Shown here: piece after piece, positions 307 to 58,002 of the stretch
Layout: each line of letters starts with the position of its first letter
How positions within the stretch are numbered: position 1 is the first letter of the stretch
Assembly: GCF_003018235.1 (NCBI RefSeq)
Contig: NZ_CP027437.1
DNA: 64,000 nt
From: Escherichia coli
GTDB lineage: Bacteria; Pseudomonadota; Gammaproteobacteria; Enterobacterales; Enterobacteriaceae
Reading direction: 5' to 3' (one strand)
The notes under the pieces: model-generated
What the model saw: the letters and a program-made list of their open reading frames with translations, nothing else
Told to the model about the DNA's origin: nothing
The model's database searches: none
Program-made: the position numbers and the translations under genes

Positions 307-413
307 GGGGGATCTTAAGCAATCAGAAGCCAATGACTACGCATTTTTATAAGCCGGATCATGAAGTTAGACGGCAATTAAGTAACACTAACGTTTAAGG
401 TGAAAAGTGAAAT

Positions 414-1610: not shown

Positions 1611-1636
1611 AAGCGCGGCTGGATAACGCCGAACCG

Positions 1637-2065: not shown

Positions 2066-2074
2066 GGAAAATGA

Positions 2075-2677
2075 ATGGAAGCGCGAATTTCAACTGAACG
2101 GCATGTGCAGCGCCAGCAGAAATTGAAGGAACAGGTCGATACGCGCATCGCGGCGGCGATAGAGAAAAAAGGGATTTTGATTGTTTTCACCGGCAATGGC
2201 AAAGGGAAATCCACTGCCGCGTTTGGTACTGTGACGCGCGCGGTGGGTCATGGCAAAACGGTGGGGGTTGCGCAGTACATCAAGGGGCAATGGGACAACG
2301 GCGAATACAACCTTCTCCAGCCGCTGGGGGTTGAGTTTCATATTATGGGAACCGGTTTTACCTGGGAGACACAGAACCGGCAAGCGGATATCGACGCGGC
2401 GAAAGAGGTCTGGTCGGAAAGCAAACGGATGCTGGCTGACAAGCGTTACGACTTAGTGGTGCTTGATGAGCTGACCTATATGCTGGCTTACCATTATCTG
2501 GATACCGAAGAAGTGATCGCTTCTCTGCAAAACCGCCCGGCACAACAAAGTGTCATTGTCACCGGACGCGGTTGCCACAGTCAGATATTAAAAATGGCGG
2601 ATACGGTCAGCGAAATCCGCCCCGTCAAACATGCTTTTGATAACGGCATTCAGGCCCAGCCGGGTATCGACTGGTAA
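2075..2677 (+). CDS. Cob(I)yrinic acid a,c-diamide / cob(I)alamin adenosyltransferase family protein (CobA/CobO/BtuR-like P-loop ATPase), a paralog rather than btuR itself
   Basis: 200-aa ORF with a P-loop (IVFTGNGKGKSTAAFG) and overall similarity to BtuR as recalled (…VLDELTYM…VIVTGRG…VSEIRPVKHAF). RBS AAGGA lies 6 nt upstream and the start is 10 nt past the fumarase stop, so the genes look co-transcribed. Confidence 0.75.
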   Translation: MEARISTERHVQRQQKLKEQVDTRIAAAIEKKGILIVFTGNGKGKSTAAFGTVTRAVGHGKTVGVAQYIKGQWDNGEYNLLQPLGVEFHIMGTGFTWETQNRQADIDAAKEVWSESKRMLADKRYDLVVLDELTYMLAYHYLDTEEVIASLQNRPAQQSVIVTGRGCHSQILKMADTVSEIRPVKHAFDNGIQAQPGIDW

Positions 2678-2680
2678 TAA

Positions 2681-2713
2681 CTGCGCCTGGCATCCCGCCA
2701 GGCGCAGGTTTTA
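2681..2713. terminator. Probable bidirectional intrinsic terminator between the convergent CobA-like and LysR genes
   Basis: Perfect 11-bp inverted repeat ctgcgcctggc / gccaggcgcag with a 5-nt loop (2681-2707), followed by gtttta. Confidence 0.5.
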
Positions 2714-3616
2714 CATCTCCTGCGGTACAACCGATTTCGCCAGCAACCATTCACGAAATTGCTGCAAGTGCGGTGAGTCAGACTTCTCTTCCTGCCACGT
2801 CATAATAAAACGATTACCGGTACGAATAGGCACATCACAGGGGATCACCATATCGCCACTATCCAAATCATGTTGAATAGCGAAACGTGGTAACAGCGCC
2901 ACGCCGAGATTAGAGCGCACGGCGGCAATCAGCATTGAAAGCAAATCGAAACGTGGTCCGTTGTTGACCAGCGGACTGCTAACGCCAGATAAGGCAAACC
3001 ACTCTTCCCAGCCAGTAATACGGGTACTTTGATGCAGAAGTGGTAACTCTGTAAGCAGTTCTGCCACTGACAGTTTTTGATCGGACATTGCAAGCAAACT
3101 GCCGCTGCATACCGGCAAAATCTCCTCATCAAAGAGATATTCTACTTCCGCCCAGGGCGCGCAAAAATTTTCGCGCATAATGACAGCATCGTACTCCCGA
3201 TTAAGAAAATCGCCGTTATTAGCTAAAGAGTGAATATTAACAATAATATCGGGATGTAACTTTGTGAATTCATGTAAATTTGGGATTAACCAGTGGGTAC
3301 TAAACGTAGGATTCACGGCAAGTTCAATAACCTGAACCGTAGGCTGCCAGGTCATAATGGTATTGGTATCGCGTTCCAGCTTATTTAATGTTTCTTTTAC
3401 TATCCCCAGGTAATACTTCCCTGCATCATTAAGAAAAATACGTTTTTTAGAGTGTGAAAATAACGGAGTATGTAAAAATTCCTCCAGCGCACTCACTTGT
3501 CTGAATACTGCACTTTGGGTCAACGCTAACTCCTCTGCCGCTTTGGTATAACTTTCATGACGTGCGACGACCTCAAAAGTCACCAGCAGCTCCGTTTTAG
3601 GTATTTTTCCTCGCAT
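2711..3616 (-). CDS. LysR-family transcriptional regulator
   Basis: 301-aa ORF with an N-terminal HTH (…YTKAAEELALTQSAVFRQVSALEEFL…) and LysR-type substrate-binding domain architecture. AT-rich upstream region at 3617-3900. Confidence 0.8.
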   Translation of the reverse strand: MRGKIPKTELLVTFEVVARHESYTKAAEELALTQSAVFRQVSALEEFLHTPLFSHSKKRIFLNDAGKYYLGIVKETLNKLERDTNTIMTWQPTVQVIELAVNPTFSTHWLIPNLHEFTKLHPDIIVNIHSLANNGDFLNREYDAVIMRENFCAPWAEVEYLFDEEILPVCSGSLLAMSDQKLSVAELLTELPLLHQSTRITGWEEWFALSGVSSPLVNNGPRFDLLSMLIAAVRSNLGVALLPRFAIQHDLDSGDMVIPCDVPIRTGNRFIMTWQEEKSDSPHLQQFREWLLAKSVVPQEM

Positions 3617-4180
3617 AATGCCGTCCCTTAAAAATAGTTTAAACCATCAAAAATACATTACTTATTACGAAGTAATGGTAACCAAAGCAGCAATAAATAA
3701 TTTATAAGAATCATGATTGACATTTATAACCCAGTAAGCCTGGCGTGACAAATATCTTAATCAGATAATAATAATCCGAAAAGCACAGCGCCTTTCGAAT
3801 TATCCGGAATCACATTAAGTGAAAATTATTAAATTGATATCATTTATCATATCTGTGGATATTATGATAAACAATCAACAAAGATTTTATTTTTGATTTA
3901 TAGCATATCCCTCTAAGAATTTTTGCGATGCTGCAATATCCGGGGTAAAGACCCGATCCTGGCTGACAAATGGCACGACTTGACGATAAGCGGTGAACAT
4001 CGCTTTTGTTGATTTACTTAACGCTACGGTCAAACGCTGGGAAGCCAGTGCATCAGGTAACGATTCGAAATTCGCCGTCGTTCTTATTCGTGGCTTGCGG
4101 TCGGTTGCGGCAATCCACAGTGGCTGTGGTCATGCAGTCAAGCCAGCGGTCAGATTTCGACCGTGGTTAACATTTAAGGC

Positions 4181-4205
4181 ATAAAAAAGGCCATCATACG
4201 ATGGC
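4181..4205 (-). terminator. Rho-independent terminator of the suc operon (and 3' end of sdhX)
   Basis: On the minus strand: hairpin GGCCATCGTATGATGGCC followed by TTTTTT. Confidence 0.7.
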
Positions 4206-4281
4206 CAACCATGTCGAAACCGACAGCCCTTCGCCATTCCTGTAGAGGGAAGCGGCGAGGGCTATTTCTTATTACAGATAT
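4182..4281 (-). ncRNA. sdhX: SdhX (RybD) sRNA derived from the sucD 3' UTR
   Basis: A ~100-nt segment between the sucD stop and the intrinsic terminator, at the position where sdhX is described in E. coli K-12. Assigned by position and terminator only; I cannot verify the seed sequence from memory. Confidence 0.5.
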
Positions 4282-5151
4282 TTATTTCAGAACAGTTTTC
4301 AGTGCTTCACCGATATCCGCCAGGCTGCGAACGGTTTTCACGCCTGCGGCTTCCAGAGCAGCGAATTTCTCATCCGCAGTCCCTTTACCACCGGCAATGA
4401 TGGCACCCGCGTGGCCCATACGTTTGCCTTTCGGCGCAGTCACACCAGCGATGTAACCCACAACAGGCTTGGTAACGTGCTCTTTGATGTACGCAGCCGC
4501 TTCTTCTTCAGCGCTACCGCCGATCTCACCGATCATCACGATCGCTTCGGTCTGCGGATCTTTTTCGAACATTTCGAGGATGTCGATAAAGTTAGAGCCA
4601 GGGATCGGGTCGCCGCCGATACCGACACAGGTCGACTGACCGAAACCGTAATCCGTGGTCTGTTTAACCGCTTCATAGGTCAGTGTACCGGAACGGGAAA
4701 CGATACCCACTTTACCCGGTTTGTGAATGTGACCAGGCTGGATACCGATTTTGCATTCACCCGGAGTGATAACGCCTGGGCAGTTCGGGCCGATCATACG
4801 AACGCCAGCTTCGTCCAGTTTCACTTTCACAGTCAGCATATCCAGCGTCGGGATGCCTTCAGTGATGGTGATAATCAGTTTGATGCCTGCATCAATAGCT
4901 TCCAGAATGGAGTCTTTGCAGAACGGTGCTGGTACGTAGATAACAGAAGCGGTAGCGCCAGTAGCAGCAACAGCTTCACGCACGGTGTTGAACACCGGCA
5001 GGCCGAGGTGGGTGGTGCCGCCTTTACCTGGGGTTACGCCGCCAACCATTTTAGTGCCGTATGCAATGGCCTGTTCTGAGTGGAAAGTCCCCTGGCTACC
5101 GGTAAAGCCCTGGCAGATAACCTTGGTGTTTTTATCAATTAAAATGGACAT
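4282..5151 (-). CDS. sucD: Succinyl-CoA synthetase alpha subunit
   Basis: 289-aa ORF, recognised from memory as SucD ([24 protein letters not shown]…). Confidence 0.97.
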
Positions 5152-6317
5152 TATTTCCCCTCCACTGCGGCAACAACCTGCTGAGCTGCATCCGTCAGAC
5201 CTTTTGCTGCAATAATATTCAGGCCGCTGTCAGCCAGTTTCTTCGCGCCGAGTTCGGCGTTGTTACCTTCCAGACGTACCACGACCGGTACGTTAACACC
5301 CACTTCCGCTACCGCGCCGATGATACCGTCAGCGATCAGGTCGCAACGAACGATACCGCCGAAGATGTTAACCAGAACGGCTTTCACTTTGTCGTCAGAG
5401 AGGATGATTTTGAACGCTTCGGTTACACGTTCTTTGGTTGCGCCGCCGCCAACGTCAAGGAAGTTAGCTGGTTCGCCGCCGTGCAGTTTAACGATGTCCA
5501 TCGTACCCATCGCCAGACCTGCGCCGTTAACCATACAACCGATGTTACCGTCCAGCGCAACGTAGTTCAGTTCCCACTGTGCAGCCTGTGCTTCACGTGG
5601 ATCTTCCTGCGACTGGTCACGCATTTCGCGCAGATCAGGCTGGCGGAACAGTGCGTTGCCATCAGCGCCCAGTTTGCCGTCGAGGCAAATCAGATCGCCC
5701 TGTTTGGTGATGACCAGCGGGTTGATTTCGATCAGCGCCAGGTCGCGCTCCAGGAAAATGGTCGCCAGGCCCATGAAGATTTTGGTGAACTGCTGAACCA
5801 GTTTACCTTCCAGACCCAGTTTGAACGCCAGCTCGCGTCCCTGATACGGCATCGGGCCAGTCAGCGGATCAAGCGCAACTTTGTGGATCAGGTGCGGAGT
5901 TTCTTCCGCCACTTTTTCGATTTCCACGCCGCCTTCGGTGGAGGCCATAAAGACCACACGACGGGAACTACGGTCAACAACGGCACCGAGATACAGCTCT
6001 TTAGCGATATCGGTCGCTGCTTCAACCAGAATCTGGTTAACCGGTTGGCCATTGGCATCTGTTTGATACGTTACCAGACGCTTGCCCAGCCAGTTTTCTG
6101 CAAAAGCACGGATGTCTTCTTTGCTGTTTACAACTTTCACACCGCCCGCTTTACCGCGGCCACCAGCGTGAACCTGACATTTCACTACCCACGGACCGGC
6201 ACCGATTTTTGAAGCGGCTTCTTCTGCTTCGCGCGGAGTAGTACAGGCATAACCCACCGGTGCTGGTAAGCCATAGCGGGCAAAAAGTTGTTTTGCCTGA
6301 TATTCATGTAAGTTCAT
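5151..6317 (-). CDS. sucC: Succinyl-CoA synthetase beta subunit
   Basis: 388-aa ORF ([18 protein letters not shown]…); ATGA overlap with sucD. Confidence 0.97.
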
Positions 6318-6410
6318 GTGTTCTGTCCATCCTTCAGTAATCGTTATCTTTTAAACCGTAGACCGACACCCTATCCACGTCGGTCTACAGTGCAGGTGAA
6401 GCTTAAACTA

Positions 6411-7628
6411 CTACACGTCCAGCAGCAGACGCGTCGGATCTTCCAGCAACTCTTTGATCGTTACCAGGAAGCCCACGGATTCGCGACCATCGATCAGACG
6501 GTGATCGTAGGACAGCGCCAGGTACATCATCGGCAGGATCTCAACCTGACCATTCACCGCCATCGGACGATCTTTGATAGCGTGCATACCCAGAATTGCG
6601 CTCTGCGGCGGGTTGATGATCGGCGTAGACATCAGGGAACCGAACACACCACCGTTGGTGATGGTGAAGTTACCACCGGTCAGATCTTCAACCGTCAGCT
6701 TGCCGTCACGGCCTTTAACTGCCAGCTCTTTGATTTTCTTCTCGATGTCTGCCATGCCTAGGGTATCGACATCACGCAGTACCGGCGTCACCAGGCCGCG
6801 CGGCGTAGAAACCGCCATGCTGACGTCGAAATAGTTGTGGTAAACCACATCATCGCCGTCGATAGACGCGTTCACTTCCGGGTAACGTTTCAGGGCTTCA
6901 ACCACCGCTTTCACGTAGAAGGACATAAAGCCCAGACGAATACCGTGACGTTTTTCAAACGCTTCACCGTACTGCTTACGCAGATCCATAATCGGCTTCA
7001 TGTTGACTTCGTTGAACGTGGTCAGCATAGCGGTGGAGTTTTTCGCTTCCAGCAGACGCTCTGCCACACGCTTACGCAGGCGAGTCATCGGCACACGTTT
7101 TTCGCTACGTGCAGCCAGAGCCGGTTGCGCCGCCGGAGCAGCCGCTGCCGGAGCAGACTCTTTCGCCGGGGCTTTCGCCAGATGTTTTTCCACATCTTCA
7201 CGAGTCAGACGACCACCCACACCGGTGCCTTTAATGGCGCTGGCGTCGAGGTTGTGTTCAGCCAGCAGGCGACGGATCGCCGGGCTTAACGCATCGTTGT
7301 TTTGCTCTTCCAGAGACGCCTGCTGGCGTTGCGCCGGAGTGGACGCTTTCTCTTCAGATTTGGCGCTGGTTTCTTTACCGGCGCTGTTGCCTTCACGCAG
7401 GCGACCAAGGATCTGACGAGACGTTACCGTTGTACCTTCATCTTCCAGAACCGCATCCAGAATGCCGTCTGCTGATGCCGGTACTTCCAGTACCACTTTG
7501 TCAGTTTCGATTTCTACCAGCACTTCATCACGTACGACTGCGTCGCCGGGTTTTTTATGCCAGGTTGCGACGGTGGCATCGGCTACGGATTCAGGCAGGT
7601 CAGGGACCAGAATATCTACGCTACTCAT
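6411..7628 (-). CDS. sucB: 2-oxoglutarate dehydrogenase E2 (dihydrolipoyl succinyltransferase)
   Basis: 405-aa ORF with a lipoyl domain (…[12 protein letters not shown]…) and a catalytic domain ending …DPTRLLLDV. Confidence 0.97.
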
Positions 7629-7642
7629 TGTGTATCCTTTAT

Positions 7643-10444
7643 TTATTCGACGTTCAGCGCGTCATTAACCAGATCTTGTTGCTGTTTCTGGTGAACGGAC
7701 ATATACCCTACCGCCGGAGAGGCGGAGGCCGGGCGGCCTGCATAACGCAGAGAAGCCCCAAACGGAATCACTTCACGGAAATGATGCTGGCTGCAGTACC
7801 ATGCGCCCTGGTTGAGCGGCTCTTCCTGGCACCAGACAAAATCCTTGACGTGAGCAAACTGCTGCAACACTTCCTGCATCGCTTTATGCGGGAACGGGTA
7901 GAGTTGCTCGATACGCACAATGGCGACATCGTGTTGATTGTTCTTACGACGCTGTTCCAGCAGGTCGTAATAAACCTTACCAGAACACATCACTACACGC
8001 TTAACGCCCTTCGGATCAAGCTCGTCGATTTCACCGATGGCTGGCAGGAAGGTGCCGTTCGCCAGTTCTTCGAGGCTGGAAACCGCCAGCGGATGACGCA
8101 GCAGGGATTTCGGCGACATCACGACCAGCGGACGACGCATCCCGCGCAGCGCCTGACGACGCAGCATGTGGTAAACCTGTGCCGGGGTAGAAGGTACGCA
8201 AACCTGCATGTTTTGCTCAGCACAAAGTTGCAGATAACGTTCCAGACGCGCGGAGGAGTGCTCCGGCCCCTGCCCTTCGTAACCGTGCGGCAGCAACATC
8301 ACCAGACCACACATCCGGCCCCATTTCTGTTCGCCAGAGGAGATGAACTGGTCGATAACCACCTGAGCACCGTTAGCGAAGTCACCGAACTGCGCTTCCC
8401 AGATAGTCAGAGTGCGTGGTTCTGCGGTGGCATAACCATATTCAAACGCCAGCACTGCTTCTTCAGACAGTACGGAGTCCCAGACACGGAACGCGCCCTG
8501 GCCGTTATGGATGTGTTGCAGCGGCGTGTAAGTGGAACCGTTAGACTGGTTGTGGATCACCGCGTGGCGGTGGAAGAAGGTACCGCGACCGGAGTCTTCA
8601 CCCGACAGGCGAACCGGAATGCCTTCGTCAACCAGCGTGGCGTAAGCGAGGTTTTCCGCGCCGCCCCAGTCGAACAGTTTCTCACCAGCTGCCATCGCCT
8701 GGCGATCGCCATAAATCTTGGCAACGCGAGACTGCATTTCAACTGCTTCCGGCACCGTGCTGATGCGTTTAGCCAGTTCCTGCAGGCGCTTCATCTCAAC
8801 TTTGTTCGGGTACTCTTCGTCCCATTCGTGGTTGAGGTACGGCGACCAGGTGAAAGAGTGCATGTTCATCGGACGCCACTCTGCTACCACGCAATCGCCA
8901 GCATCCAGCGCATCGCGGTACAGGTTAACCATCTCGGTGGCATCTTCCAGCGTCGCGACTTTTTCCTGCTCCAGCTTGTCAGCGTAGATTTTGCGCGGCG
9001 TCGGATGTTTTTTGATTTTCTGATACATCAGCGGCTGGGTTGCGCTCGGCTCGTCGGCTTCGTTGTGGCCGTGACGGCGGTAGCATACCAGGTCGATAAA
9101 GACATCACGTTTAAAGGTGTTACGGAAATCGAGCGCCAGACGGGTCACAAAGGCAACGGCTTCCGGATCGTCCGCGTTAACGTGGAAAATCGGGGCCTGA
9201 ACCATCTTACCGATATCAGTACAGTACGGTGTAGAACGAGCATCCAGCGGATTAGAGGTGGTGAAGCCAACCTGGTTGTTGATAACGATACGTACCGTAC
9301 CGCCAACTTCATAACCACGCGCTTTCGACATGTTCAGGGTTTCCTGAACCACGCCCTGCCCGGTCACTGCGGCGTCACCGTGGATGGTAATTGGCAGCAC
9401 TTTGTTGCTGCTCGGCTCATCAAGTCTGTCCAGACGGGCACGAACAGAACCGATAACTACCGGGCTGACAATCTCAAGGTGAGACGGGTTAAACGCCAGC
9501 GCCAGGTGCACCAGGCCGCCATCGGTCTGGAAGTCAGACGAGAAGCCCATGTGGTATTTCACGTCGCCTGTGCCAAGGTGTTCTTTATGTTTACCGGCGA
9601 ACTCGTCGAACAAGTCTTGCGGTTTTTTACCCAGCACGTTCACCAACACGTTCAGACGACCACGGTGCGCCATTCCGAGAACCACTTCGCGGGTGCCGCT
9701 GTTGCCAGCGTGGCGGATCATCTCTTTAAGCATCGGGATTAACGCGTCACCGCCTTCCAGCGAGAAGCGTTTTGCGCCAGGGAATTTTGCGCCGAGGTAA
9801 CGTTCAAGGCCTTCAGCGGCGGTCAGTTCGCTTAAGAAGCGTTTTTTCTCTTCGCTATTGAAAGTCGCGCGACCAGACTCGATACGCTGTTGGATCCAGC
9901 GTTTTTCTTCAGTGCTGGTAATGTGCATATACTCGGCACCAATCGGGCCGCAGTAGGTTTGCTTGAGGGCTTCCAGCAGCTCGCCGAGTTTCATGGTTTC
10001 TTTGCCGCTGGCAAATGAACCGACGTTGAAGGTCTCCTGGAAGTCTGCTTCGGTCAGATCGTGGAAAGACGGATCCAGATCGGCCACTTTATCTTGCTGC
10101 CACAGTCCCAGCGGATCGAGATTCGCATGCTGGTGACCACGGAAGCGGTATGCGTTAATGAGCTGCAGGACTTTAACCTGCTTCACATTGGTGTCAGGGT
10201 CGGAGATCGTTGAAGAGTAACGTGAAGCGTCTTTCGCCAGGCGGCGGAAATATTCACGCGTTTGAGAGTGGAATTGATCCGGTTTGACTCCCGTACCAGG
10301 TAACTGCTGGAACGTCGAACGCCAGTTAGCGTCAACCGAGTCAGGATCGGTTAAGAAGTCTTCATAGAGCTGTTCTATCCAGCTCTGGTTTGCGCCAGAG
10401 AGGTAAGAAGAGTCCAACCAGGCTTTCAAAGCGCTGTTCTGCAT
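7643..10444 (-). CDS. sucA: 2-oxoglutarate dehydrogenase E1 component
   Basis: 933-aa ORF ([30 protein letters not shown]…). Confidence 0.97.
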
Positions 10445-43124: not shown

Positions 43125-45801
43125 CGAACCCTTACGTCCCGACCCCGATCGTCTGCTGGAACAAACTGCCGCGCCGCATCGGGGGAAGCTGAAAGTTTTC
43201 TTCGGTGCCTGCGCAGGCGTCGGGAAGACCTGGGCGATGCTGGCAGAAGCCCAGCGACTGCGGGCGCAAGGGCTGGATATTGTGGTTGGCGTGGTAGAAA
43301 CCCACGGGCGGAAAGATACCGCCGCAATGCTGGAAGGGCTGGCTGTTCTGCCGTTAAAACGCCAGGCGTACCGTGGGCGGCACATCAGCGAGTTTGATCT
43401 CGATGCCGCCCTCGCCCGCCGTCCGGCACTGATCTTAATGGACGAACTGGCGCACAGTAATGCGCCAGGTTCTCGTCATCCTAAACGCTGGCAGGACATC
43501 GAAGAGCTGCTGGAAGCTGGCATTGATGTTTTCACAACCGTCAACGTTCAGCATCTGGAAAGTCTGAATGATGTGGTCAGCGGCGTCACCGGAATTCAGG
43601 TACGGGAAACCGTGCCCGATCCTTTTTTCGATGCCGCCGACGACGTGGTGCTGGTGGACTTGCCCCCGGACGATCTGCGTCAACGGCTGAAAGAAGGTAA
43701 AGTCTATATTGCCGGGCAGGCGGAACGCGCCATTGAACATTTTTTTCGCAAAGGCAATCTGATCGCCCTGCGCGAACTGGCACTGCGCCGTACTGCCGAT
43801 CGCGTAGATGAGCAAATGCGCGCCTGGCGGGGGCATCCTGGCGAAGAGAAAGTCTGGCACACGCGCGACGCGATCCTTTTATGCATCGGGCATAACACCG
43901 GCAGCGAAAAACTGGTCCGCGCGGCGGCGCGGCTGGCGTCACGGCTGGGTAGCGTCTGGCACGCGGTGTATGTTGAAACCCCTGCCCTGCATCGCTTACC
44001 GGAGAAAAAACGTCGGGCAATTCTCAGCGCCTTACGTCTGGCGCAGGAGCTGGGCGCAGAGACGGCAACACTTTCTGATCCAGCGGAAGAGAAAGCGGTA
44101 GTGCGTTATGCCCGTGAACATAATCTTGGCAAGATTATTCTCGGTCGCCCGGCCTCGCGCCGCTGGTGGCGTCGGGAAACGTTTGCTGACCGACTGGCGC
44201 GCATCGCCCCCGATCTCGATCAGGTGCTGGTCGCGCTTGATGAACCACCCGCCCGCACGATAAACAACGCGCCGGATAGCCGCTCTTTTAAAGACAAGTG
44301 GCGGGTACAGATTCAGGGATGCGTGGTTGCCGCCGCGTTATGCGCCGTTATCACCTTAATTGCCATGCAGTGGCTGATGGCGTTTGATGCCGCCAACCTG
44401 GTGATGCTGTATCTACTTGGCGTGGTGGTGGTGGCGCTATTTTATGGGCGCTGGCCTTCGGTGGTTGCTACCGTCATTAATGTGGTGAGTTTCGATCTCT
44501 TTTTTATCGCCCCACGCGGCACGCTCGCCGTCTCTGATGTGCAATATCTGCTGACCTTCGCGGTGATGTTAACCGTCGGGCTGGTGATCGGGAACCTTAC
44601 TGCTGGCGTTCGTTATCAGGCGCGGGTAGCCCGTTACCGCGAGCAACGCACACGGCACTTATATGAAATGTCGAAAGCTCTGGCGGTGGGCCGCAGTCCG
44701 CAGGACATCGCCGCCACCAGCGAACAATTTATTGCCTCCACGTTTCATGCCCGCAGTCAGGTGTTGTTGCCCGATGACAACGGTAAATTGCAGCCGTTAA
44801 CACATCCGCAAGGAATGACGCCGTGGGACGATGCCATCGCGCAGTGGAGTTTTGATAAAGGCCTGCCTGCGGGCGCGGGCACCGACACGTTACCCGGTGT
44901 ACCGTACCAGATTTTGCCGCTAAAAAGCGGCGAGAAAACCTACGGGCTGGTGGTGGTGGAACCGGGGAATCTGCGCCAGTTGATGATCCCGGAACAGCAA
45001 CGCCTGCTGGAGACGTTTACGCTGTTAGTCGCCAATGCCCTTGAGCGGCTGACACTGACCGCCAGCGAAGAACAGGCGCGGATGGCAAGCGAACGAGAAC
45101 AGATCCGCAACGCCCTGCTGGCGGCGCTTTCGCATGATTTACGCACGCCGCTTACGGTGCTGTTCGGTCAGGCAGAAATCTTAACGCTCGATCTGGCGAG
45201 CGAAGGATCGCCCCACGCCCGCCAGGCCAGCGAGATTCGTCAGCATGTGCTGAACACGACCCGACTGGTGAATAATCTACTGGATATGGCGCGAATTCAG
45301 TCCGGCGGCTTTAATTTGAAGAAAGAGTGGTTAACGCTGGAAGAAGTGGTCGGCAGCGCGCTGCAAATGCTGGAACCGGGTTTATCGTCGCCCATCAATC
45401 TTTCTCTGCCAGAACCGCTGACCTTAATCCACGTTGACGGGCCACTCTTTGAACGGGTGCTGATTAATCTGCTGGAGAACGCGGTGAAATACGCGGGTGC
45501 GCAGGCCGAAATTGGTATCGATGCCCACGTTGAGGGCGAAAATCTACAACTGGATGTCTGGGATAATGGCCCCGGTCTTCCGCCAGGCCAGGAGCAGACG
45601 ATATTTGATAAGTTTGCTCGCGGGAATAAAGAGTCGGCGGTACCGGGTGTAGGGCTTGGGCTGGCAATTTGTCGGGCGATTGTGGATGTACACGGCGGCA
45701 CCATTACCGCGTTCAACCGACCGGAAGGTGGTGCCTGTTTTCGTGTTACACTTCCCCAGCAAACTGCCCCTGAACTTGAAGAATTTCATGAGGATATGTG
45801 A
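43117..45801 (+). CDS. kdpD: Sensor histidine kinase KdpD
   Basis: Start at the ATG giving [41 protein letters not shown] (894 aa); 8-nt overlap with kdpC. Confidence 0.95.
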
Positions 45802-46475
45802 CAAACGTTCTGATTGTTGAAGATGAACAGGCTATTCGTCGCTTTCTGCGCACGGCGCTGGAGGGCGATAGGATGCGCGTCTTTGAGGCCGAAACGCTGC
45901 AACGCGGCTTGCTGGAAGCGGCTACCCGTAAGCCAGATTTGATTATTCTCGATCTCGGCCTGCCCGATGGTGATGGGATTGAGTTTATCCGCGACCTGCG
46001 CCAGTGGAGCGCAGTGCCGGTGATTGTGCTTTCCGCACGTAGCGAAGAGAGCGACAAAATCGCCGCGCTGGATGCCGGAGCGGATGATTATCTGAGTAAG
46101 CCGTTTGGCATTGGCGAATTGCAGGCCCGTCTGCGCGTCGCATTACGCCGCCACTCTGCCACCACCACGCCCGATCCGCTGGTGAAATTTTCCAATGTTA
46201 CCGTCGATTTAGCGGCTCGAGTGATCCATCGCGGTGAGGAAGAGGTGCATCTCACCCCGATTGAGTTCCGCCTGCTGGCGGTGTTGCTTAATAATGCGGG
46301 AAAAGTGCTCACCCAGCGCCAGCTCCTTAACCAGGTGTGGGGGCCAAACGCGGTCGAACACAGTCATTATTTGCGTATTTATATGGGGCATCTGCGACAA
46401 AAACTGGAACAGGATCCCGCCCGCCCACGCCATTTCATTACTGAAACCGGTATTGGGTATCGGTTTATGCTTTGA
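45798..46475 (+). CDS. kdpE: Response regulator KdpE (OmpR family)
   Basis: 225-aa ORF ([37 protein letters not shown]…). Confidence 0.95.
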   Translation: MTNVLIVEDEQAIRRFLRTALEGDRMRVFEAETLQRGLLEAATRKPDLIILDLGLPDGDGIEFIRDLRQWSAVPVIVLSARSEESDKIAALDAGADDYLSKPFGIGELQARLRVALRRHSATTTPDPLVKFSNVTVDLAARVIHRGEEEVHLTPIEFRLLAVLLNNAGKVLTQRQLLNQVWGPNAVEHSHYLRIYMGHLRQKLEQDPARPRHFITETGIGYRFML

Positions 46476-46749
46476 ATTGTTATTCAATAAATTCGCTTTA
46501 ATAGTGATTAATTTATTATTAAACCTGCTCCAAATATTATTATTTGGCAGGTTTAATTTCTTAACGCAAATATAAAACACGAAATTACAACATTTAAGTA
46601 ACAAAACAGCATCTAATATAGCAATATTCATAATTAATGATTTATTATCTGGGGTATGATCGTTTTTTTTTGATCTTCTTCACAGATTATAGCCATTTCA
46701 TGGATAGAATAACTCTACCTTCAACTGACACAGCAAGAGGTAAAGGTAA

Positions 46750-46854
46750 ATGGAAAATAATAACCGCTTAATGCCTCATATAAGGCGGACAACCCATATC
46801 ATGAAGTTTGCCCATCGTAATAGTTTTGACTTTCATTTCTTTAATGCCCGCTAG
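46750..46854 (+). CDS. speFL: speF leader / ornithine-sensing ribosome-arrest peptide
   Basis: 34-codon ORF MENNNRLMPHIRRTTHIMKFAHRNSFDFHFFNAR, ~310 nt upstream of speF. Not in the ORF track (below its length cutoff). The HIRRTTHIMKFAHRNSFDFHFFNAR portion matches SpeFL as I recall it. Confidence 0.75.
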   Translation: MENNNRLMPHIRRTTHIMKFAHRNSFDFHFFNAR

Positions 46855-47164
46855 TCTTCTGACTAAAGGGCACCCCAACGTACAGGTCTCCCTGACTTTA
46901 AGCATTACAGGTTAATACCTGTATCCTTCGGTGCTCATATACTGCTAACCCTTTTAAACTCTAAATAATTCGAGTCGCAGCACTTGCAACTTGAGGTATG
47001 ACGAGTATAGCCAGTTACCGGGCTGGTCTGGGTTATTGCATCTACAAAAAGCAAACTACTGATTTATTTATCAGCGGTGGGGTTTTGCTTTTTTTCCGGC
47101 GTGATCGATTTCTCCTTTGAGAAATTGAGGACCTGCTATTACCTGAAATAAAGAGATGAACAAA

Positions 47165-49363
47165 ATGTCAGAATTAAAAATTGCCGTTAGTCGTTCTTGC
47201 CCGGATTGTTTTTCAACTCATCGCACATGCGTGAATATTGACGAAAGTAATTATATTGACGTTGCCGCCATTATTTTATCGGTCAATGATGTGGAACGTG
47301 GAAAACTCGATGAAATAGACGCTACTGGCTATGGCATTCCTGTTTTTATTGCAACGGAAAATGAAGAACGTGTACCCGCAGAATATCTGCCACGTATTTC
47401 TGGTGTCTTCGAACATTGCGAATCACGTAAAGAGTTTTATGGACGTCAGTTAGAAACCGCTGCAAGCCATTATGAAACGCAACTGCGCCCGCCCTTCTTC
47501 CGCGCACTGGTCGATTATGTTAATCAGGGCAATAGTGCTTTTGACTGCCCTGGTCATCAGGGGGGTGAGTTTTTCCGTCGCCATCCGGCAGGCAATCAGT
47601 TCGTGGAATACTTTGGTGAGGCGCTGTTCCGTGCTGACTTGTGCAACGCCGACGTAGCGATGGGCGATCTGCTGATTCACGAAGGCGCGCCATGCATTGC
47701 ACAGCAACATGCGGCTAAAGTCTTTAATGCCGATAAAACCTATTTCGTTTTAAACGGTACTTCATCTTCTAATAAAGTGGTCTTAAACGCATTGCTGACG
47801 CCGGGCGATCTGGTGTTGTTTGACCGCAATAACCATAAATCTAACCACCACGGTGCGTTGCTACAGGCTGGCGCGACACCGGTTTATCTGGAAACCGCAC
47901 GTAACCCGTATGGTTTTATCGGTGGTATTGACGCTCACTGTTTTGAAGAAAGTTACCTGCGTGAGCTGATTATAGAAGTTGCACCGCAGCGGGCAAAAGA
48001 GGCTCGTCCTTTCCGCCTCGCCGTTATTCAGCTAGGCACTTACGACGGTACGATTTATAACGCCCGTCAGGTGGTGGATAAAATTGGTCATCTGTGTGAC
48101 TACATCCTCTTTGACTCCGCATGGGTCGGCTATGAGCAGTTTATCCCGATGATGGCGGACTGTTCACCACTGTTGCTGGATCTTAATGAGAACGATCCGG
48201 GTATTCTGGTTACGCAATCCGTACATAAACAGCAGGCTGGTTTTTCTCAAACTTCACAAATCCATAAAAAAGACAGCCACATCAAAGGGCAACAGCGTTA
48301 TGTACCGCACAAACGCATGAACAACGCCTTTATGATGCACGCCTCCACCAGCCCGTTCTATCCGCTGTTTGCCGCACTGGATATCAACGCCAAAATGCAT
48401 GAAGGTGTCAGCGGTCGTAATATGTGGATGGATTGTGTGGTAAATGGCATTAATGCCCGCAAACTGATCCTCGATAACTGTCAGCATATTCGTCCGTTCG
48501 TACCTGAACTGGTGGATGGTAAACCCTGGCAGTCGTATGAAACAGCGCAAATTGCGGTTGATCTGCGCTTCTTCCAGTTTGTACCAGGGGAACACTGGCA
48601 TTCTTTTGAAGGCTATGCAGAGAATCAATACTTTGTTGATCCGTGCAAACTGTTGCTGACAACCCCAGGTATTGATGCACGTAACGGCGAATATGAAGCG
48701 TTCGGTGTACCCGCGACGATTCTTGCTAATTTCCTGCGCGAAAATGGCGTAGTGCCGGAAAAATGCGATCTTAACTCCATCCTCTTCCTGCTGACTCCAG
48801 CAGAAGATATGGCCAAACTTCAGCAACTTGTTGCCCTGCTGGTACGCTTCGAAAAACTGCTGGAATCTGATGCGCCGCTGGCGGAAGTGCTACCTTCCAT
48901 CTACAAACAGCATGAAGAGCGCTACGCCGGTTATACGCTTCGTCAGTTGTGCCAGGAAATGCATGATTTGTATGCCCGCCACAACGTGAAACAACTGCAA
49001 AAAGAGATGTTCCGTAAGGAACACTTCCCACGCGTCAGCATGAATCCGCAAGAAGCTAACTACGCCTATTTACGCGGTGAAGTGGAGCTGGTTCGTCTGC
49101 CGGATGCAGAAGGCCGTATCGCTGCCGAAGGTGCGCTTCCTTATCCTCCGGGTGTGCTGTGTGTTGTTCCGGGTGAAATCTGGGGTGGTGCTGTTTTGCG
49201 TTACTTCAGCGCTCTGGAAGAAGGGATCAACCTGCTGCCAGGTTTTGCACCGGAGCTGCAGGGTGTCTATATCGAAGAACATGATGGTCGTAAGCAAGTT
49301 TGGTGCTATGTCATCAAGCCTCGTGATGCGCAAAGCACCCTGTTGAAAGGGGAAAAATTATGA
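47165..49363 (+). CDS. speF: Inducible ornithine decarboxylase
   Basis: Start at the ATG giving MSELKIAVS… (732 aa). Confidence 0.95.
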   Translation: MSELKIAVSRSCPDCFSTHRTCVNIDESNYIDVAAIILSVNDVERGKLDEIDATGYGIPVFIATENEERVPAEYLPRISGVFEHCESRKEFYGRQLETAASHYETQLRPPFFRALVDYVNQGNSAFDCPGHQGGEFFRRHPAGNQFVEYFGEALFRADLCNADVAMGDLLIHEGAPCIAQQHAAKVFNADKTYFVLNGTSSSNKVVLNALLTPGDLVLFDRNNHKSNHHGALLQAGATPVYLETARNPYGFIGGIDAHCFEESYLRELIIEVAPQRAKEARPFRLAVIQLGTYDGTIYNARQVVDKIGHLCDYILFDSAWVGYEQFIPMMADCSPLLLDLNENDPGILVTQSVHKQQAGFSQTSQIHKKDSHIKGQQRYVPHKRMNNAFMMHASTSPFYPLFAALDINAKMHEGVSGRNMWMDCVVNGINARKLILDNCQHIRPFVPELVDGKPWQSYETAQIAVDLRFFQFVPGEHWHSFEGYAENQYFVDPCKLLLTTPGIDARNGEYEAFGVPATILANFLRENGVVPEKCDLNSILFLLTPAEDMAKLQQLVALLVRFEKLLESDAPLAEVLPSIYKQHEERYAGYTLRQLCQEMHDLYARHNVKQLQKEMFRKEHFPRVSMNPQEANYAYLRGEVELVRLPDAEGRIAAEGALPYPPGVLCVVPGEIWGGAVLRYFSALEEGINLLPGFAPELQGVYIEEHDGRKQVWCYVIKPRDAQSTLLKGEKL

Positions 49364-50679
49364 GTCAGGCTAAATCGAACAAAATGGGCGTCGTTCAGTT
49401 AACCATACTGACGATGGTCAACATGATGGGCTCCGGTATCATCATGCTGCCGACAAAGCTTGCCGAAGTTGGGACAATTTCAATTATCTCCTGGCTGGTG
49501 ACAGCCGTAGGCTCAATGGCACTGGCATGGGCATTCGCAAAATGCGGTATGTTCAGCCGTAAATCAGGCGGTATGGGCGGTTATGCGGAGTATGCTTTCG
49601 GTAAATCCGGGAACTTTATGGCGAACTATACCTACGGCGTCTCACTGCTAATTGCTAACGTCGCGATTGCTATTTCGGCGGTTGGTTACGGCACCGAACT
49701 GCTCGGCGCGAGTTTGTCGCCAGTGCAGATTGGTCTTGCGACCATCGGGGTGCTGTGGATTTGTACCGTGGCTAACTTTGGTGGTGCGCGCATTACCGGG
49801 CAAATCAGTAGCATTACCGTGTGGGGGGTCATTATTCCGGTGGTAGGCCTGTGCGTTATCGGCTGGTTCTGGTTTAGCCCGACGCTTTACGTTGATTCCT
49901 GGAATCCGCATCATGCACCGTTCTTCAGTGCGGTAGGTTCTTCCATCGCTATGACGCTGTGGGCTTTTCTTGGTCTGGAGTCTGCGTGTGCGAATACTGA
50001 TGTAGTGGAAAACCCGGAACGTAATGTGCCAATCGCGGTACTCGGCGGTACGTTAGGTGCGGCGGTGATTTATATCGTCTCCACCAACGTGATTGCAGGG
50101 ATTGTGCCTAATATGGAGCTGGCAAATTCAACGGCACCATTTGGCCTGGCCTTCGCACAGATGTTCACGCCAGAAGTGGGTAAAGTCATTATGGCGCTGA
50201 TGGTGATGTCCTGCTGCGGTTCGCTGCTTGGCTGGCAGTTCACCATTGCCCAGGTGTTTAAATCTTCATCTGATGAAGGCTACTTCCCTAAAATTTTCTC
50301 CCGTGTAACCAAAGTGGATGCACCGGTGCAGGGAATGTTGACCATTGTGATTATCCAGAGCGGGTTGGCGCTGATGACGATTAGCCCGTCGCTAAACAGT
50401 CAGTTCAACGTGCTGGTTAACCTAGCCGTGGTGACCAATATCATTCCGTATATTCTGTCAATGGCGGCATTAGTCATTATTCAGAAGGTCGCTAATGTGC
50501 CCCCCTCAAAAGCGAAAGTTGCAAACTTTGTTGCTTTTGTTGGCGCGATGTACAGCTTTTATGCGCTGTACTCATCCGGGGAAGAAGCCATGCTATACGG
50601 TTCCATCGTGACCTTCCTCGGTTGGACACTGTATGGTCTGGTCTCACCACGCTTTGAACTGAAAAATAAACACGGTTAA
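49360..50679 (+). CDS. potE: Putrescine/ornithine antiporter
   Basis: 439-aa ORF; 4-nt overlap with the speF stop. Confidence 0.95.
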   Translation: MSQAKSNKMGVVQLTILTMVNMMGSGIIMLPTKLAEVGTISIISWLVTAVGSMALAWAFAKCGMFSRKSGGMGGYAEYAFGKSGNFMANYTYGVSLLIANVAIAISAVGYGTELLGASLSPVQIGLATIGVLWICTVANFGGARITGQISSITVWGVIIPVVGLCVIGWFWFSPTLYVDSWNPHHAPFFSAVGSSIAMTLWAFLGLESACANTDVVENPERNVPIAVLGGTLGAAVIYIVSTNVIAGIVPNMELANSTAPFGLAFAQMFTPEVGKVIMALMVMSCCGSLLGWQFTIAQVFKSSSDEGYFPKIFSRVTKVDAPVQGMLTIVIIQSGLALMTISPSLNSQFNVLVNLAVVTNIIPYILSMAALVIIQKVANVPPSKAKVANFVAFVGAMYSFYALYSSGEEAMLYGSIVTFLGWTLYGLVSPRFELKNKHG

Positions 50680-50689
50680 TTAAGCAAAG

Positions 50690-50722
50690 CAAAAAAGGGC
50701 GATCTTCCGACCGCCCTTTTTC
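50690..50722. terminator. Bidirectional intrinsic terminator between convergent potE and pgm
   Basis: aaaaaagggcgatcttccgaccgccctttttctt: a GC hairpin flanked by A- and T-runs. Confidence 0.6.
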
Positions 50723-50735
50723 TTATTTAATGTGT

Positions 50736-52376
50736 TTACGCGTTTTTCAGAACTTCGCTAACAATCTCAACCGCTTCTTTCTCGATCTGCTTGCGATGCT
50801 CTTCACCGAGGAAGCTTTCGCAATAAATCTTGTACGCGTCTTCCGTGCCTGACGGACGCGCGGCGAACCAGCCGTTGTCAGTCATCACTTTCAGACCGCC
50901 AATAGAAGCACCGTTGCCCGGAGCAGCAGTCAGGCGTGCGGTGATCGGGTCACCTGCCAGGGTGCTGGCGCTCACCATTTCCGGAGACAGCTTAGACAGC
51001 GCCGCTTTTTGTGCGGAAGTCGCAGCTGCCTGCAAACGGTTGTAGCTCGGCGCACCAAAGCGTTTTGCCAGTTCGTTGTAGTGTTCCTGCGGGTTCTTAC
51101 CGGTGACAGCGGTGATTTCCGCCGCCAGCAGACACATGATGATGCCGTCTTTGTCGGTGGACCACGGCGTGCCGTCGAAACGCAGGAAGGAAGCCCCCGC
51201 ACTCTCTTCGCCGCCAAAGCCGAAGCTGCCGTCAAACAGACCATCAACAAACCATTTGAAACCTACCGGGACTTCTACCAGTTTACGGCCCAAATCGTTG
51301 ACCACACGGTCGATCATCGCAGAAGAAACCAGCGTTTTACCGACAGCAACATCTTTGCCCCACTGCGGACGGTGCTGGAACAGGTAGTTGATCGCCACCG
51401 CCAGGTAGTGGTTCGGATTCATCAAACCTGCCGGAGTGACGATACCGTGACGGTCATAATCCGGGTCGTTAGCAAACGCCAGATCGAACTTATCACGCAG
51501 TGCCAGCAGACCCGCCATCGCACACTCGGAGGAGCAGTCCATACGGATCGCACCGTCTTTATCTAGGTGCATAAAGCGGAAGGTTTGATCGACCTGATCG
51601 TTAACGATGGTCAGGTTGAGGTTGTAATACTCGCCAATGCGCTTCCAGTATTCGATACCGGAACCACCCAGCGGATCAACGCCCAGCGTCAGGCCCGCTT
51701 TCTGAATCGCCGCCATATCAACGATATCGGCCAGCCCTTCCACAAACGGCTGCACCAGATCCTGCTCTTTCACATGACCGGATGCCATCGCTTCGTCGAG
51801 GGAGATACGCTTCACGCCTTTCAGGCCATCGGCCATCAGTGCGTTGGCCCTGTCTTCCACCACTTTGGTGACGTTAGTATCAGCCGGGCCACCATTTGGC
51901 GGATTGTACTTGATACCACCATCTTCCGGCGGGTTATGGGACGGTGTAATCACGATACCGTCTGCCAGCGGGCCACCTTTTTTATTGTGAACCAGAATGG
52001 CATTGGAAATGGCAGGTGTCGGAGTGAAGCCATTGTTTTCCTGCACAATGACATCAACGCCGTTCGCTGCCAGCACTTCCAGAACGGAAATGAACGCAGG
52101 CTCGGACAGGGCGTGAGTATCTTTACCCACATAGCAAGGGCCAGTGATGCCGTTTTTCGCACGTTCTTCAGCAATTGCCTGAGCGATCGCCAGAATGTGC
52201 GGCTCGTTAAAGCTGTGGCGCGCTGCACTGCCACGGTGACCGGAAGTACCGAATTTCACCGCGTGCTCCGCATTCCCTGCTTCTGGTTTCAGTACATAAT
52301 ATTGCGCCGTTAGTTGGGCGACGTTAATCAAATCACTCTGTTGTGCAGGTTGGCCTGCACGATTGTGGATTGCCAT
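50736..52376 (-). CDS. pgm: Phosphoglucomutase
   Basis: Start at the ATG giving [27 protein letters not shown] (546 aa); active-site TPSHNP present. Confidence 0.95.
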
Positions 52377-52401
52377 TGCTTTGTCCTTTGTCTGCAACGT
52401 T

Positions 52402-52947
52402 TTAGATAGTTCCGCAAACCTTCTCAATCAATTCCGCCGGGAATTGCATCGACTGCATGATGTGTTCGATCATGCTGCATTTACGGCCGGTGTTGGTGTT
52501 GGTGATCACCCAATACGGCGTGCCAGGCACATGTTTCGGCTTGGTCTGATTACCATTTTTCAGCAGCGTTTGTTCATCTGCCGCAAAGTAAACGCGTGTA
52601 CGACCGTGCAACGATTCCGTTGCTTCGGCAAACGCCTGGGCGTCAAGAGAATATAGTGTAGACAACAGCAGCATAAAGCGATTGACCGCTCGCTTTTGCT
52701 CTGCGTATTCATCCGAAAGCAGAAGTTCACGCATTGCGCGAACCTTGTCTTTAATCGTTTTGACCGGCTTCGCTTCGACGATAGCAGGTGACGCAACGCG
52801 AACCTCTTTCGTCACCGGAGCAGCAGGCTGTGATGCGGCGGAAAATTTCAACATACGCCGTAAAATGTCGGATGCGCTCTCGCCGATATGCTTAGTGTGG
52901 CTGGCAATATAGCTGTAGAGTTCATCATCAACTTCAATCGTTTTCAT
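52402..52947 (-). CDS. seqA: Negative regulator of replication initiation SeqA
   Basis: Start at the ATG giving [33 protein letters not shown] (181 aa). Confidence 0.95.
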
Positions 52948-53131
52948 CTTAATCCAGTGCAGTGTCTTAGCTGAATACAAGTCGCCAGGAGTATATGAAT
53001 AAATCCCGGCAGCGGATAGCGTCAAGCCTGGCTTGCAGAAAAACTCGGAATAAACCTTATTTGTTGCAGCCCTGTGGCACAATGGTCAACATAATACCCT
53101 AACCCGACAACGCGAAAAAAAGAACTTTGCC

Positions 53132-53896
53132 ATGAAATTGAATATCCGCGCGCAAACTGCACAAAACCAGCACAATAATTCTCCCATCGTTCTTGTCCAT
53201 GGTCTGTTTGGCAGTCTCGACAACCTTGGCGTACTGGCTCGCGATCTGGTAAACGATCACAATATCATCCAGGTTGATATGCGTAACCACGGTCTTTCAC
53301 CGAGAGATCCAGTGATGAATTACCCGGCGATGGCGCAGGATCTTGTTGATACCCTGGATGCACTGCAGATCGACAAAGCAACATTTATCGGTCACTCCAT
53401 GGGCGGTAAAGCGGTAATGGCACTTACTGCACTGACCCCCGATCGGATTGACAAGCTGGTGGCAATTGATATTGCTCCGGTCAATTATCACGTTCGCCGG
53501 CATGATGAGATTTTCGCGGCCATCAACGCAGTCAGTGAATCGGACGCACAAACTCGCCAGCAAGCAGCAGCAATAATGCGCCAGCATCTTAATGAAGAAG
53601 GGGTGATTCAGTTTCTGCTGAAATCTTTTGTTGATGGGGAGTGGCGCTTTAACGTGCCGGTATTGTGGGATCAGTATCCGCATATTGTGGGTTGGGAGAA
53701 AATCCCGGCATGGGATCACCCTGCCCTGTTTATCCCTGGCGGCAATTCTCCGTATGTTAGCGAGCAGTACCGCGATGATTTACTGGCACAATTTCCACAG
53801 GCACGGGCGCATGTGATTGCAGGCGCGGGTCACTGGGTCCATGCTGAAAAACCGGATGCGGTATTACGCGCTATCCGTCGCTATCTCAATGATTAA
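53132..53896 (+). CDS. ybfF: Alpha/beta-hydrolase-fold esterase
   Basis: 254-aa ORF with a GHSMGG nucleophile motif. Confidence 0.92.
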   Translation: MKLNIRAQTAQNQHNNSPIVLVHGLFGSLDNLGVLARDLVNDHNIIQVDMRNHGLSPRDPVMNYPAMAQDLVDTLDALQIDKATFIGHSMGGKAVMALTALTPDRIDKLVAIDIAPVNYHVRRHDEIFAAINAVSESDAQTRQQAAAIMRQHLNEEGVIQFLLKSFVDGEWRFNVPVLWDQYPHIVGWEKIPAWDHPALFIPGGNSPYVSEQYRDDLLAQFPQARAHVIAGAGHWVHAEKPDAVLRAIRRYLND

Positions 53897-57984: not shown

Positions 57985-58002
57985 ATTGTTTGCATGTTTC
58001 AT

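What the first reader, a model, noticed from the sequence alone, without database searches (positions are those of the whole stretch)
50680..50735. potE and pgm are directly convergent, separated by 56 bp
From memory, E. coli K-12 carries additional small genes (ybfP, ybfG/ybfH) between pgm and potE. Here the two genes are separated only by a 56-bp spacer containing a bidirectional terminator. This suggests the window represents the uninterrupted state, or a lineage lacking that insertion. My recollection of the K-12 gene content here is not certain.
Basis: partly seen in the sequence, partly recalled or inferred. Interest (0 to 1): 0.2.

Follow-up and report, generated by a model that had tools for sequence, protein, structure and literature searches.

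The report
Compact potE–pgm junction, no K-12 insert
In this E. coli window the potE and pgm genes end tail to tail, 56 bases apart, around one shared terminator hairpin; this is the commonest E. coli arrangement, and K-12 differs only by an extra 1.7 kb accessory segment, so the finding is correct but ordinary.

Summary
potE (49360-50679, +) and pgm (50736-52376, -) converge across a 56-bp spacer. The spacer holds one A6/GC-hairpin/T5 element (50691-50722) that folds as an intrinsic terminator on both strands.

MG1655 has 1,747 bp here, carrying ybfP, the ybfG pseudogene (DUF2625) and the ybfI pseudogene. So the stated refutation, K-12 showing the same 56-bp junction, fails.

The two alleles differ by exactly 1,692 bp. 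That segment is bounded by a 13-bp direct repeat, AAAAAAGGGCGAT, which is the left arm of two paralogous terminator hairpins.

Among 5,426 complete E. coli genomes:
- 3,163 have the compact junction.
- 1,851 have the K-12 segment.
- At least 246 lack speF-potE altogether and have kdpE-REP-ybfP-pgm.
- 2 have hairpin-BIME-hairpin.

E. albertii has a 57-bp spacer. About 55 other Enterobacteriaceae species keep kdpE-speF-potE/pgm-seqA synteny, and none has ybfP or ybfG.

Whether the window's lineage never had the segment or lost it by deletion between the 13-bp repeats is unresolved, at roughly even odds. This is known pangenome variation, so interest is low.

The parts
49360..50679 (+). potE, the putrescine-ornithine antiporter and last gene of the speFL-speF-potE operon
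   Evidence: 439-aa ORF. NF007938 scores 856 bits and TIGR04299 849.6 bits. RefSeq annotation of matching genomes agrees.
50680..50735 (.). 56-bp intergenic spacer between the convergent potE and pgm stop codons
   Evidence: The same 55-56-bp spacer occurs in 3,163 of 5,426 complete E. coli genomes (sampled sequences).
50691..50722 (.). Shared bidirectional intrinsic-terminator-like hairpin: an A6 run, an 8-bp GC-rich stem, a 4-nt loop, an 8-bp stem and a T5 run
   Evidence: Terminator scan. RNA folds give -21.5 kcal/mol (- strand, z = -5.2) and -15.3 kcal/mol (+ strand, z = -2.8). The same A-run/hairpin/T-run design, with at least 7 different stem sequences, occurs in 38 of 55 potE-pgm spacers (54 of other genomes, plus the window's own).
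50691..50703 (.). AAAAAAGGGCGAT, the breakpoint interval. This 13-mer occurs once here and twice in K-12, where the copies flank the extra 1,692 bp
   Evidence: The blastn flanks overlap by 13 bp. The two copies lie at island positions 12 and 1704, 1,692 bp apart.
50736..52376 (-). pgm, phosphoglucomutase, downstream of seqA
   Evidence: 546 aa; TIGR01132 scores 1073.7 bits over positions 1-546. RefSeq annotation agrees.
46332..46476 (+). Last 144 bp of kdpE plus the next base (context). K-12's ybfI pseudogene is a diverged second copy of this stretch, lying inside the segment that the window lacks
   Evidence: K-12 island positions 82-226 match window 46332-46476 at 91% nucleotide identity. 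tblastn aligns KdpE residues 177-225 to ybfI at 84%.

Best explanation
The window carries the island-free, majority E. coli allele of the kdpE-speFL-speF-potE / pgm-seqA region. The speF-potE operon and the seqA-pgm unit converge on a single GC-rich hairpin, which has an A-run on one side and a T-run on the other.

Read on either strand, the hairpin is followed by a U-tract. It therefore most likely acts as an intrinsic terminator for both transcription units, a bidirectional terminator, and keeps each polymerase out of the opposing gene. Shown here: the geometry, the fold energies, and the conservation of the design across species. Inferred: that termination actually happens at this site.

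The difference from K-12 is one indel of exactly 1,692 bp, with its ends inside a 13-bp direct repeat (AAAAAAGGGCGAT). In K-12 that segment holds, in order:
- a second terminator hairpin directly after potE;
- a partial REP;
- a 145-bp copy of the 3' end of kdpE (ybfI);
- a DUF2625 pseudogene (ybfG);
- the E. coli-restricted lipoprotein gene ybfP;
- a BIME (a cluster of REP repeats).

None of this is present in the window. Whether the window's lineage never had the segment or lost it is left open; see the rival explanations.
For: Gene identities and 56-bp spacing.

Hairpin. The A-run/hairpin/T-run architecture is kept in 38 of 55 spacers (54 other genomes plus the window's own) although the stem sequence differs, with at least 7 stem types.

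K-12 annotation and the exact indel.

Census of 5,426 complete E. coli genomes: 3,163 compact (all 23 full-length rows shown were single pieces of 300-301 bp); 1,851 with at least 80% of the K-12 segment; 246 kdpE-REP-ybfP-pgm; 2 hairpin-BIME-hairpin.

No YbfP or YbfG hit in the window.

Bidirectional terminators between convergent E. coli genes are an established class (Ju et al. 2019, as summarised in 10.1101/2022.10.23.513370). ybfP is already listed as an accessory gene enriched in phylogroup A (10.1101/096479).
Against: No transcript 3'-end data were available, so termination in either direction is inferred from sequence. On the potE strand the stem has an A/C mismatch and is weaker (-15.3 kcal/mol, z = -2.8), and the simple scan did not call it a terminator on that strand. 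The cited work also argues that some bidirectional terminators act mainly as pause sites and need polymerase collisions.
Confidence: 0.9

Rival explanations
1. Primary absence. The compact junction is the ancestral Escherichia state, and the window's lineage never carried the ybfI-ybfG-ybfP segment. K-12 and its relatives gained it later.
For: E. albertii has a 57-bp single-hairpin spacer. About 55 Enterobacteriaceae species keep kdpE-speF-potE/pgm-seqA synteny with no YbfP or YbfG hit. YbfP has only 27 sequence clusters in 5.8 billion proteins, and every cluster that carries a source name is labelled E. coli, so the gene is a recent addition to the genus. The compact form is the majority. It occurs in strains of phylogroups B2 and E (APEC O18, O127:H6, O157:H7), which by general knowledge branch outside the A/B1 group that includes K-12.
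Against: Every sampled compact E. coli junction carries the hairpin type that lies next to pgm in K-12 (loop region CTTSCGAC). The hairpin directly after potE in K-12, in other segment-bearing strains, in E69 and in the outgroup E. albertii is the other type (loop GAAT). No E. coli genome has potE, the GAAT-type hairpin and pgm directly joined (best match 97.8%). The segment's alleles are deeply diverged (94.6% nucleotide identity for the AJ5 variant of the segment; YbfP down to 63% aa), which argues that it is old in E. coli.
Confidence: 0.5
2. Secondary deletion. An ancestor of the window's lineage had two terminator hairpins with the segment (or at least a BIME) between them. Recombination between the 13-bp left arms removed everything in between. 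That left potE's own flank fused to the pgm-proximal hairpin.
For: The breakpoints fall exactly in a 13-bp perfect direct repeat, which is a classic substrate for short-repeat deletion. The window's hairpin loop and right arm are identical to the pgm-proximal hairpin of strains that carry ybfP (L003, L005, L092, L097). The outgroup and K-12 have the other hairpin type after potE. Strain HH97 equals K-12 minus exactly those 1,692 bp, with 1 mismatch in 375 bp. It is the only such genome among 5,426, so the same join has arisen on a K-12-like haplotype. The rare hairpin-BIME-hairpin state is likewise K-12 minus the DNA between a second repeat pair of about 42 bp.
Against: This needs the segment to predate most E. 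coli diversification. It then needs either several losses or spread of the deleted allele by recombination. Outgroups give no sign of the segment. HH97 could equally be the unfilled site of the K-12 haplotype.
Confidence: 0.42
3. Artefact. The compact junction results from assembly collapse across repeats.
For: None. The only formal ground is that the K-12 segment is flanked by repeats (hairpin arms, REP/BIME).
Against: The identical 301-bp junction occurs at 100% identity in independent complete genomes. The same 55-56-bp form occurs in 3,163 complete assemblies, and RefSeq annotates it.
Confidence: 0.01

Closest known systems
E. coli K-12 MG1655 pgm-ybfP-ybfG'-ybfI'-potE region (b0688-b0692)
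   Same: Same flanking genes and orientation. potE and pgm are 97-98% identical in nucleotide sequence. The pgm-proximal hairpin differs by 1 nt from the window's.
   Different: K-12 has 1,747 bp instead of 56 bp. The extra DNA holds a second hairpin after potE, a partial REP, a kdpE 3' fragment (ybfI), a DUF2625 pseudogene (ybfG), ybfP and a BIME.
Compact potE/pgm junction of other E. coli (e.g. ETEC1738, APEC O18, O157:H7) and of E. albertii
   Same: A 55-57-bp spacer with a single A-run/hairpin/T-run. The E. coli copies share the window's breakpoints and hairpin type.
   Different: The E. albertii hairpin has the GAAT loop and a perfect GATC stem end, which is the K-12 potE-proximal type. 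Its pgm-side flank also differs.
Bidirectional transcription terminators between convergent E. coli genes (Ju et al. 2019; ynaJ-uspE example in 10.1101/2022.10.23.513370)
   Same: A hairpin-encoding element placed between convergent gene ends and readable on both strands.
   Different: The window's element looks like a canonical intrinsic terminator on both strands, with GC stem and U-tract. The class described in that paper is said not to resemble intrinsic terminators and to depend on polymerase collisions. No 3'-end data exist here.

Membership tests
Bidirectional intrinsic terminator | GC-rich stem-loop that folds on both strands | tested here: met
   -21.5 kcal/mol (- strand, z = -5.2) and -15.3 kcal/mol (+ strand, z = -2.8). 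The stem is 8 bp with 6 GC pairs.
Bidirectional intrinsic terminator | U-tract directly 3' of the hairpin on each strand (A-run upstream and T-run downstream in the DNA) | tested here: met
   A6 at 50691-50696 and T5 at 50717-50721.
Bidirectional intrinsic terminator | Lies between the 3' ends of convergent transcription units | tested here: met
   potE stop at 50679 and pgm stop at 50736.
Bidirectional intrinsic terminator | Transcript 3' ends map to the U-tracts in both directions | not testable with these tools
   No transcriptome data were available.
K-12-type ybfP/ybfG/ybfI accessory segment | ybfP, DUF2625 (ybfG) and kdpE-fragment (ybfI) sequence between potE and pgm | tested here: not met
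   tblastn of YbfP and YbfG gives no hit in the 64-kb window, and KdpE hits only the full kdpE gene. The spacer is 56 bp.
K-12-type ybfP/ybfG/ybfI accessory segment | Two terminator hairpins: the GAAT-loop type after potE and the CTTSCGAC type before pgm | tested here: not met
   The window has a single hairpin of the second type.
REP/BIME-containing intergenic region | REP palindromes (GCCGGATGCGGCG...) in the spacer | tested here: not met
   The REP part of the K-12 segment matches the window only at 58002-58034, not in the spacer.

The most novel reading that the evidence does not exclude
The compact E. coli potE-pgm junction is a scar rather than the primitive state. On this reading all E. 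coli descend from an ancestor that carried speF-potE and a ybfG-ybfP cassette in tandem between kdpE and pgm. That tandem would have formed when two alternative occupants of the locus were merged, which left a duplicated kdpE tail (ybfI) and a duplicated terminator hairpin. Today's alleles (potE only, both cassettes, ybfP only, hairpin-BIME-hairpin) would then arise by deletions between the internal direct repeats of 13, about 42 and about 145 bp. Terminator hairpin arms and REP flanks would thus act as recombination substrates at a small multi-allele hotspot.
Probability: 0.35. Interest if true: 0.3.

Novelty: already known. Interest (0 to 1): 0.1.

Why it matters
It matters little. The junction is the standard arrangement in most sequenced E. 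coli and is annotated in thousands of RefSeq genomes. ybfP is already listed in the literature as a phylogroup-associated accessory gene.

The one modest point of wider interest concerns the kdpE-pgm interval as a whole. It exists in at least four structural alleles whose boundaries coincide with short direct repeats: terminator arms, REP flanks and a duplicated kdpE tail. That makes it a tidy natural example of how small accessory cassettes are gained and lost between convergent core genes. About 4.5% of complete E. coli genomes have no inducible ornithine decarboxylase/antiporter operon at all.

Tried and rejected
- Rfam scan of 46400-53200 at E <= 1. It gave only sub-threshold MicX hits (23.7 and 20.1 bits against a gathering score of 75) lying on the hairpin, plus a weak isrH hit. 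No sRNA is supported.
- Small ORFs overlapping the spacer (50492-50692 on the - strand, 66 aa; 50730-50852 on the + strand, 40 aa). Both lie inside or antisense to potE or pgm, nothing supports them, and I treated them as chance.
- Mobile-element origin of the K-12 segment. No transposase or integrase is annotated in it. YbfP has no Pfam domain and ybfG is DUF2625. I did not search phage or plasmid collections.
- Search for a donor lineage of ybfP outside E. coli. Only 27 clusters were found, and every one that carries a source name is labelled E. coli. The 63%-identical variant sits in an ordinary E. coli background.
- Search for an E. coli genome with potE, the GAAT-type hairpin and pgm directly joined, which would be the expected ancestral form under primary absence. 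None was found.
- Attempt to derive the ybfP-only state from K-12 by one recombination between kdpE and ybfI. It does not fit: those strains have a REP/BIME rather than ybfG after kdpE, and their kdpE tail is only 89% identical to ybfI.
- Searches (stop codon in the ybfG pseudogene; script error) failed and were rerun. The offsets and 1,692-bp spacing of the two 13-mer copies are nevertheless taken's output.

Full report
**Observation**

The window has a 439-aa ORF at 49360-50679 (+) and a convergent ORF ending at 50736 (-). NCBIfam identifies them as the putrescine-ornithine antiporter PotE (NF007938, 856 bits) and phosphoglucomutase Pgm (TIGR01132, 1073.7 bits, full length from the ATG at 52376). 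The upstream ORF is SpeF.

RefSeq annotation of the closest complete genome, ETEC1738, shows the same gap.

The spacer contains A6, then GGGCGATC, TTCC and GACCGCCC, then T5 (50691-50722). As RNA it folds to -21.5 kcal/mol on the pgm strand (z = -5.2) and -15.3 kcal/mol on the potE strand (z = -2.8, with one A/C mismatch). Each strand has a U-tract after the stem.

**K-12 comparison**

MG1655 has 1,747 bp between the pgm and potE stop codons. The interval is annotated with ybfP (lipoprotein), ybfG (pseudogene) and ybfI (pseudogene).

blastn aligns the window to K-12 at 96.9% on the speF-potE side and 97.9% on the pgm side. The two alignments overlap by 13 bp at window 50691-50703.

That 13-mer, AAAAAAGGGCGAT, occurs twice in K-12, 1,692 bp apart. 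It is the left arm of two similar hairpins:
- Directly after potE: GGGCGAT-TGAATG-ATCGCCC.
- Directly before pgm: GGGCGATC-TTGC-GACCGCCC, which is 1 nt different from the window's hairpin.

The K-12-only DNA reads, from potE towards pgm:
- hairpin 1;
- a partial REP with its flank (a ~42-bp imperfect direct repeat of the sequence upstream of ybfP);
- a 145-bp copy of the 3' end of kdpE (ybfI; 91% nucleotide identity to window 46332-46476; 84% aa identity to KdpE residues 177-225);
- ybfG (DUF2625, one in-frame stop);
- ybfP on the opposite strand (no Pfam domain);
- a BIME;
- hairpin 2.

**How common each form is**

I searched the 5,426 complete E. coli genomes with four queries.

| Query | Genomes matching at >=80% coverage |
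|---|---|
| 301-bp query across the window's junction | 3,163 |
| K-12 1,747-bp interval | 1,851 |
| kdpE-REP-ybfP junction | 246 |
| Synthetic hairpin1-BIME-hairpin2 junction | 2, both at 90% identity |

For the window-junction query, all 23 full-length rows displayed were single pieces of 300-301 bp.

The kdpE-REP-ybfP query came from an unexpected third form, found while inspecting the remaining genomes. In it, kdpE is followed by a REP/BIME, a ybfP allele and pgm, and there is no speFL-speF-potE at all.

The hairpin1-BIME-hairpin2 form was first seen in the divergent strain E69.

The compact form is thus the majority allele, and the locus is a small multi-allele region.

**Outgroups**

A scan of one genome per species with PotE returned 80 loci. 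About 55 of them keep potE convergent on pgm-seqA downstream of speF, and nearly all of those also have kdpE upstream. None gave a YbfP or YbfG hit.

The potE-pgm spacer ranges from 35 to 1,086 bp. E. albertii has 57 bp with a single hairpin.

In 38 of the 55 spacers (54 from other genomes plus the window's own) an A-run/GC-hairpin/T-run is present, with at least seven different stem sequences. This supports selection for the design, a terminator readable in both directions, rather than for the sequence.

Longer spacers in Salmonella, Citrobacter, Kluyvera, Yokenella, Trabulsiella and Intestinirhabdus hold a 158-161-aa Pyridox_ox_2 gene. The spot is therefore variable across the family.

**Polarity**

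At the gene level the segment is clearly an E. coli-specific addition. YbfP has only 27 clusters among 5.8 billion proteins, and every one that carries a source name is labelled E. coli.

The hairpins complicate the simple reading that K-12 gained an insert and the window is pristine:
- Every compact E. coli junction I sampled (window, APEC O18, S2, O157:H7, LH50-c, S42, APEC20/16, HH97) carries the hairpin type that lies next to pgm in segment-bearing strains.
- The hairpin directly after potE in K-12, AJ5, E06, E69 and the outgroup E. albertii is the other type, with the GAAT loop.
- No E. coli genome joins potE, the GAAT-type hairpin and pgm directly (best match 97.8%).
- Strain HH97 is K-12 minus exactly the 1,692 bp, with one mismatch in 375 bp, and it is unique among the 5,426 genomes.
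- The segment's alleles are old. One segment variant, in strain AJ5, is 94.6% identical in nucleotide sequence. YbfP alleles go down to 63% aa identity in backgrounds that are 97-98% identical to the window.

These points fit a deletion between the 13-bp repeats. Against that stand the outgroup state, the majority status of the compact form, and its presence in B2 and E strains. By general knowledge, not tested here, those phylogroups branch outside the A/B1 group. I leave the question at roughly even odds.

**Function**

The most likely role of the 56-bp spacer is a shared bidirectional terminator for the speFL-speF-potE and seqA-pgm transcription units. Such elements are an established class between convergent E. 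coli genes. Termination itself is inferred and was not measured.

**Novelty**

This is known, ordinary pangenome variation. The compact junction is annotated in thousands of RefSeq genomes, and ybfP is already reported as an accessory gene enriched in phylogroup A. Nothing in the spacer suggests an sRNA or another hidden element.

Noticed in passing
L003 5239-6050; L004; L005; L092; L097 (no counterpart in the window): At least 246 of 5,426 complete E. coli genomes (4.5%) lack speFL-speF-potE entirely. They have kdpE, a REP/BIME, a ybfP allele and pgm instead, so the inducible ornithine decarboxylase/antiporter operon is not universal in E. coli.
   Followed up: partly
window 46332-46476 versus L001 5722-5871 (ybfI): K-12's ybfI pseudogene, annotated as a winged helix-turn-helix fragment, is a diverged duplicate of the last 145 bp of kdpE (91% nucleotide, 84% aa identity). 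This implies that ybfG once lay directly downstream of a kdpE tail.
   Followed up: partly
L092 8001-8474; L005 5375-5869; P0001-P0027: YbfP is essentially confined to E. coli (27 clusters in 5.8 billion proteins), yet its alleles differ by up to 37% in amino acids. The flanking core DNA is 97-98% identical. This points to a fast-evolving or long-maintained polymorphic lipoprotein.
   Followed up: partly
window 36000-60000: The window is 99.0-99.2% identical to only four complete genomes (MEI003, HCP5S3_I2, LCP30S3_I5, ETEC1738) and about 97.3% identical to the rest of the E. coli genomes listed. It therefore comes from a rare, divergent E. coli lineage.
   Followed up: no
L008 (CP089930.1, 'E. 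coli E69') 1-9399 versus window 43339-52592: E69 is 90.6% identical to the window from kdpD through potE, which is E. albertii-like divergence, but 96.3% identical from the pgm-proximal hairpin onward. A recombination breakpoint therefore sits in the potE-pgm spacer itself.
   Followed up: partly
L014 7385-7870; L016 6471-6956; L018; L020; L045; L050; L054; L056: Salmonella enterica subsp. arizonae and diarizonae, Citrobacter, Kluyvera, Yokenella, Trabulsiella and Intestinirhabdus carry a conserved 158-161-aa Pyridox_ox_2 (PF12900) gene between potE and pgm. Some Kluyvera also carry a DUF1294 gene there. The same intergenic spot is variable across the family.
   Followed up: partly
L094 (NZ_CP116409.1, strain HH97) 140-235: HH97 is the only complete genome whose junction equals K-12 minus exactly the 1,692 bp between the two 13-bp repeats, with 1 mismatch in 375 bp. 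It is a clean empty-site or deletion allele on a K-12-like haplotype.
   Followed up: yes
L096 1946-2227 (strain E06): In strain E06 an IS200C transposase gene lies between ybfP and where pgm would be expected. This is a further structural variant of the locus.
   Followed up: no
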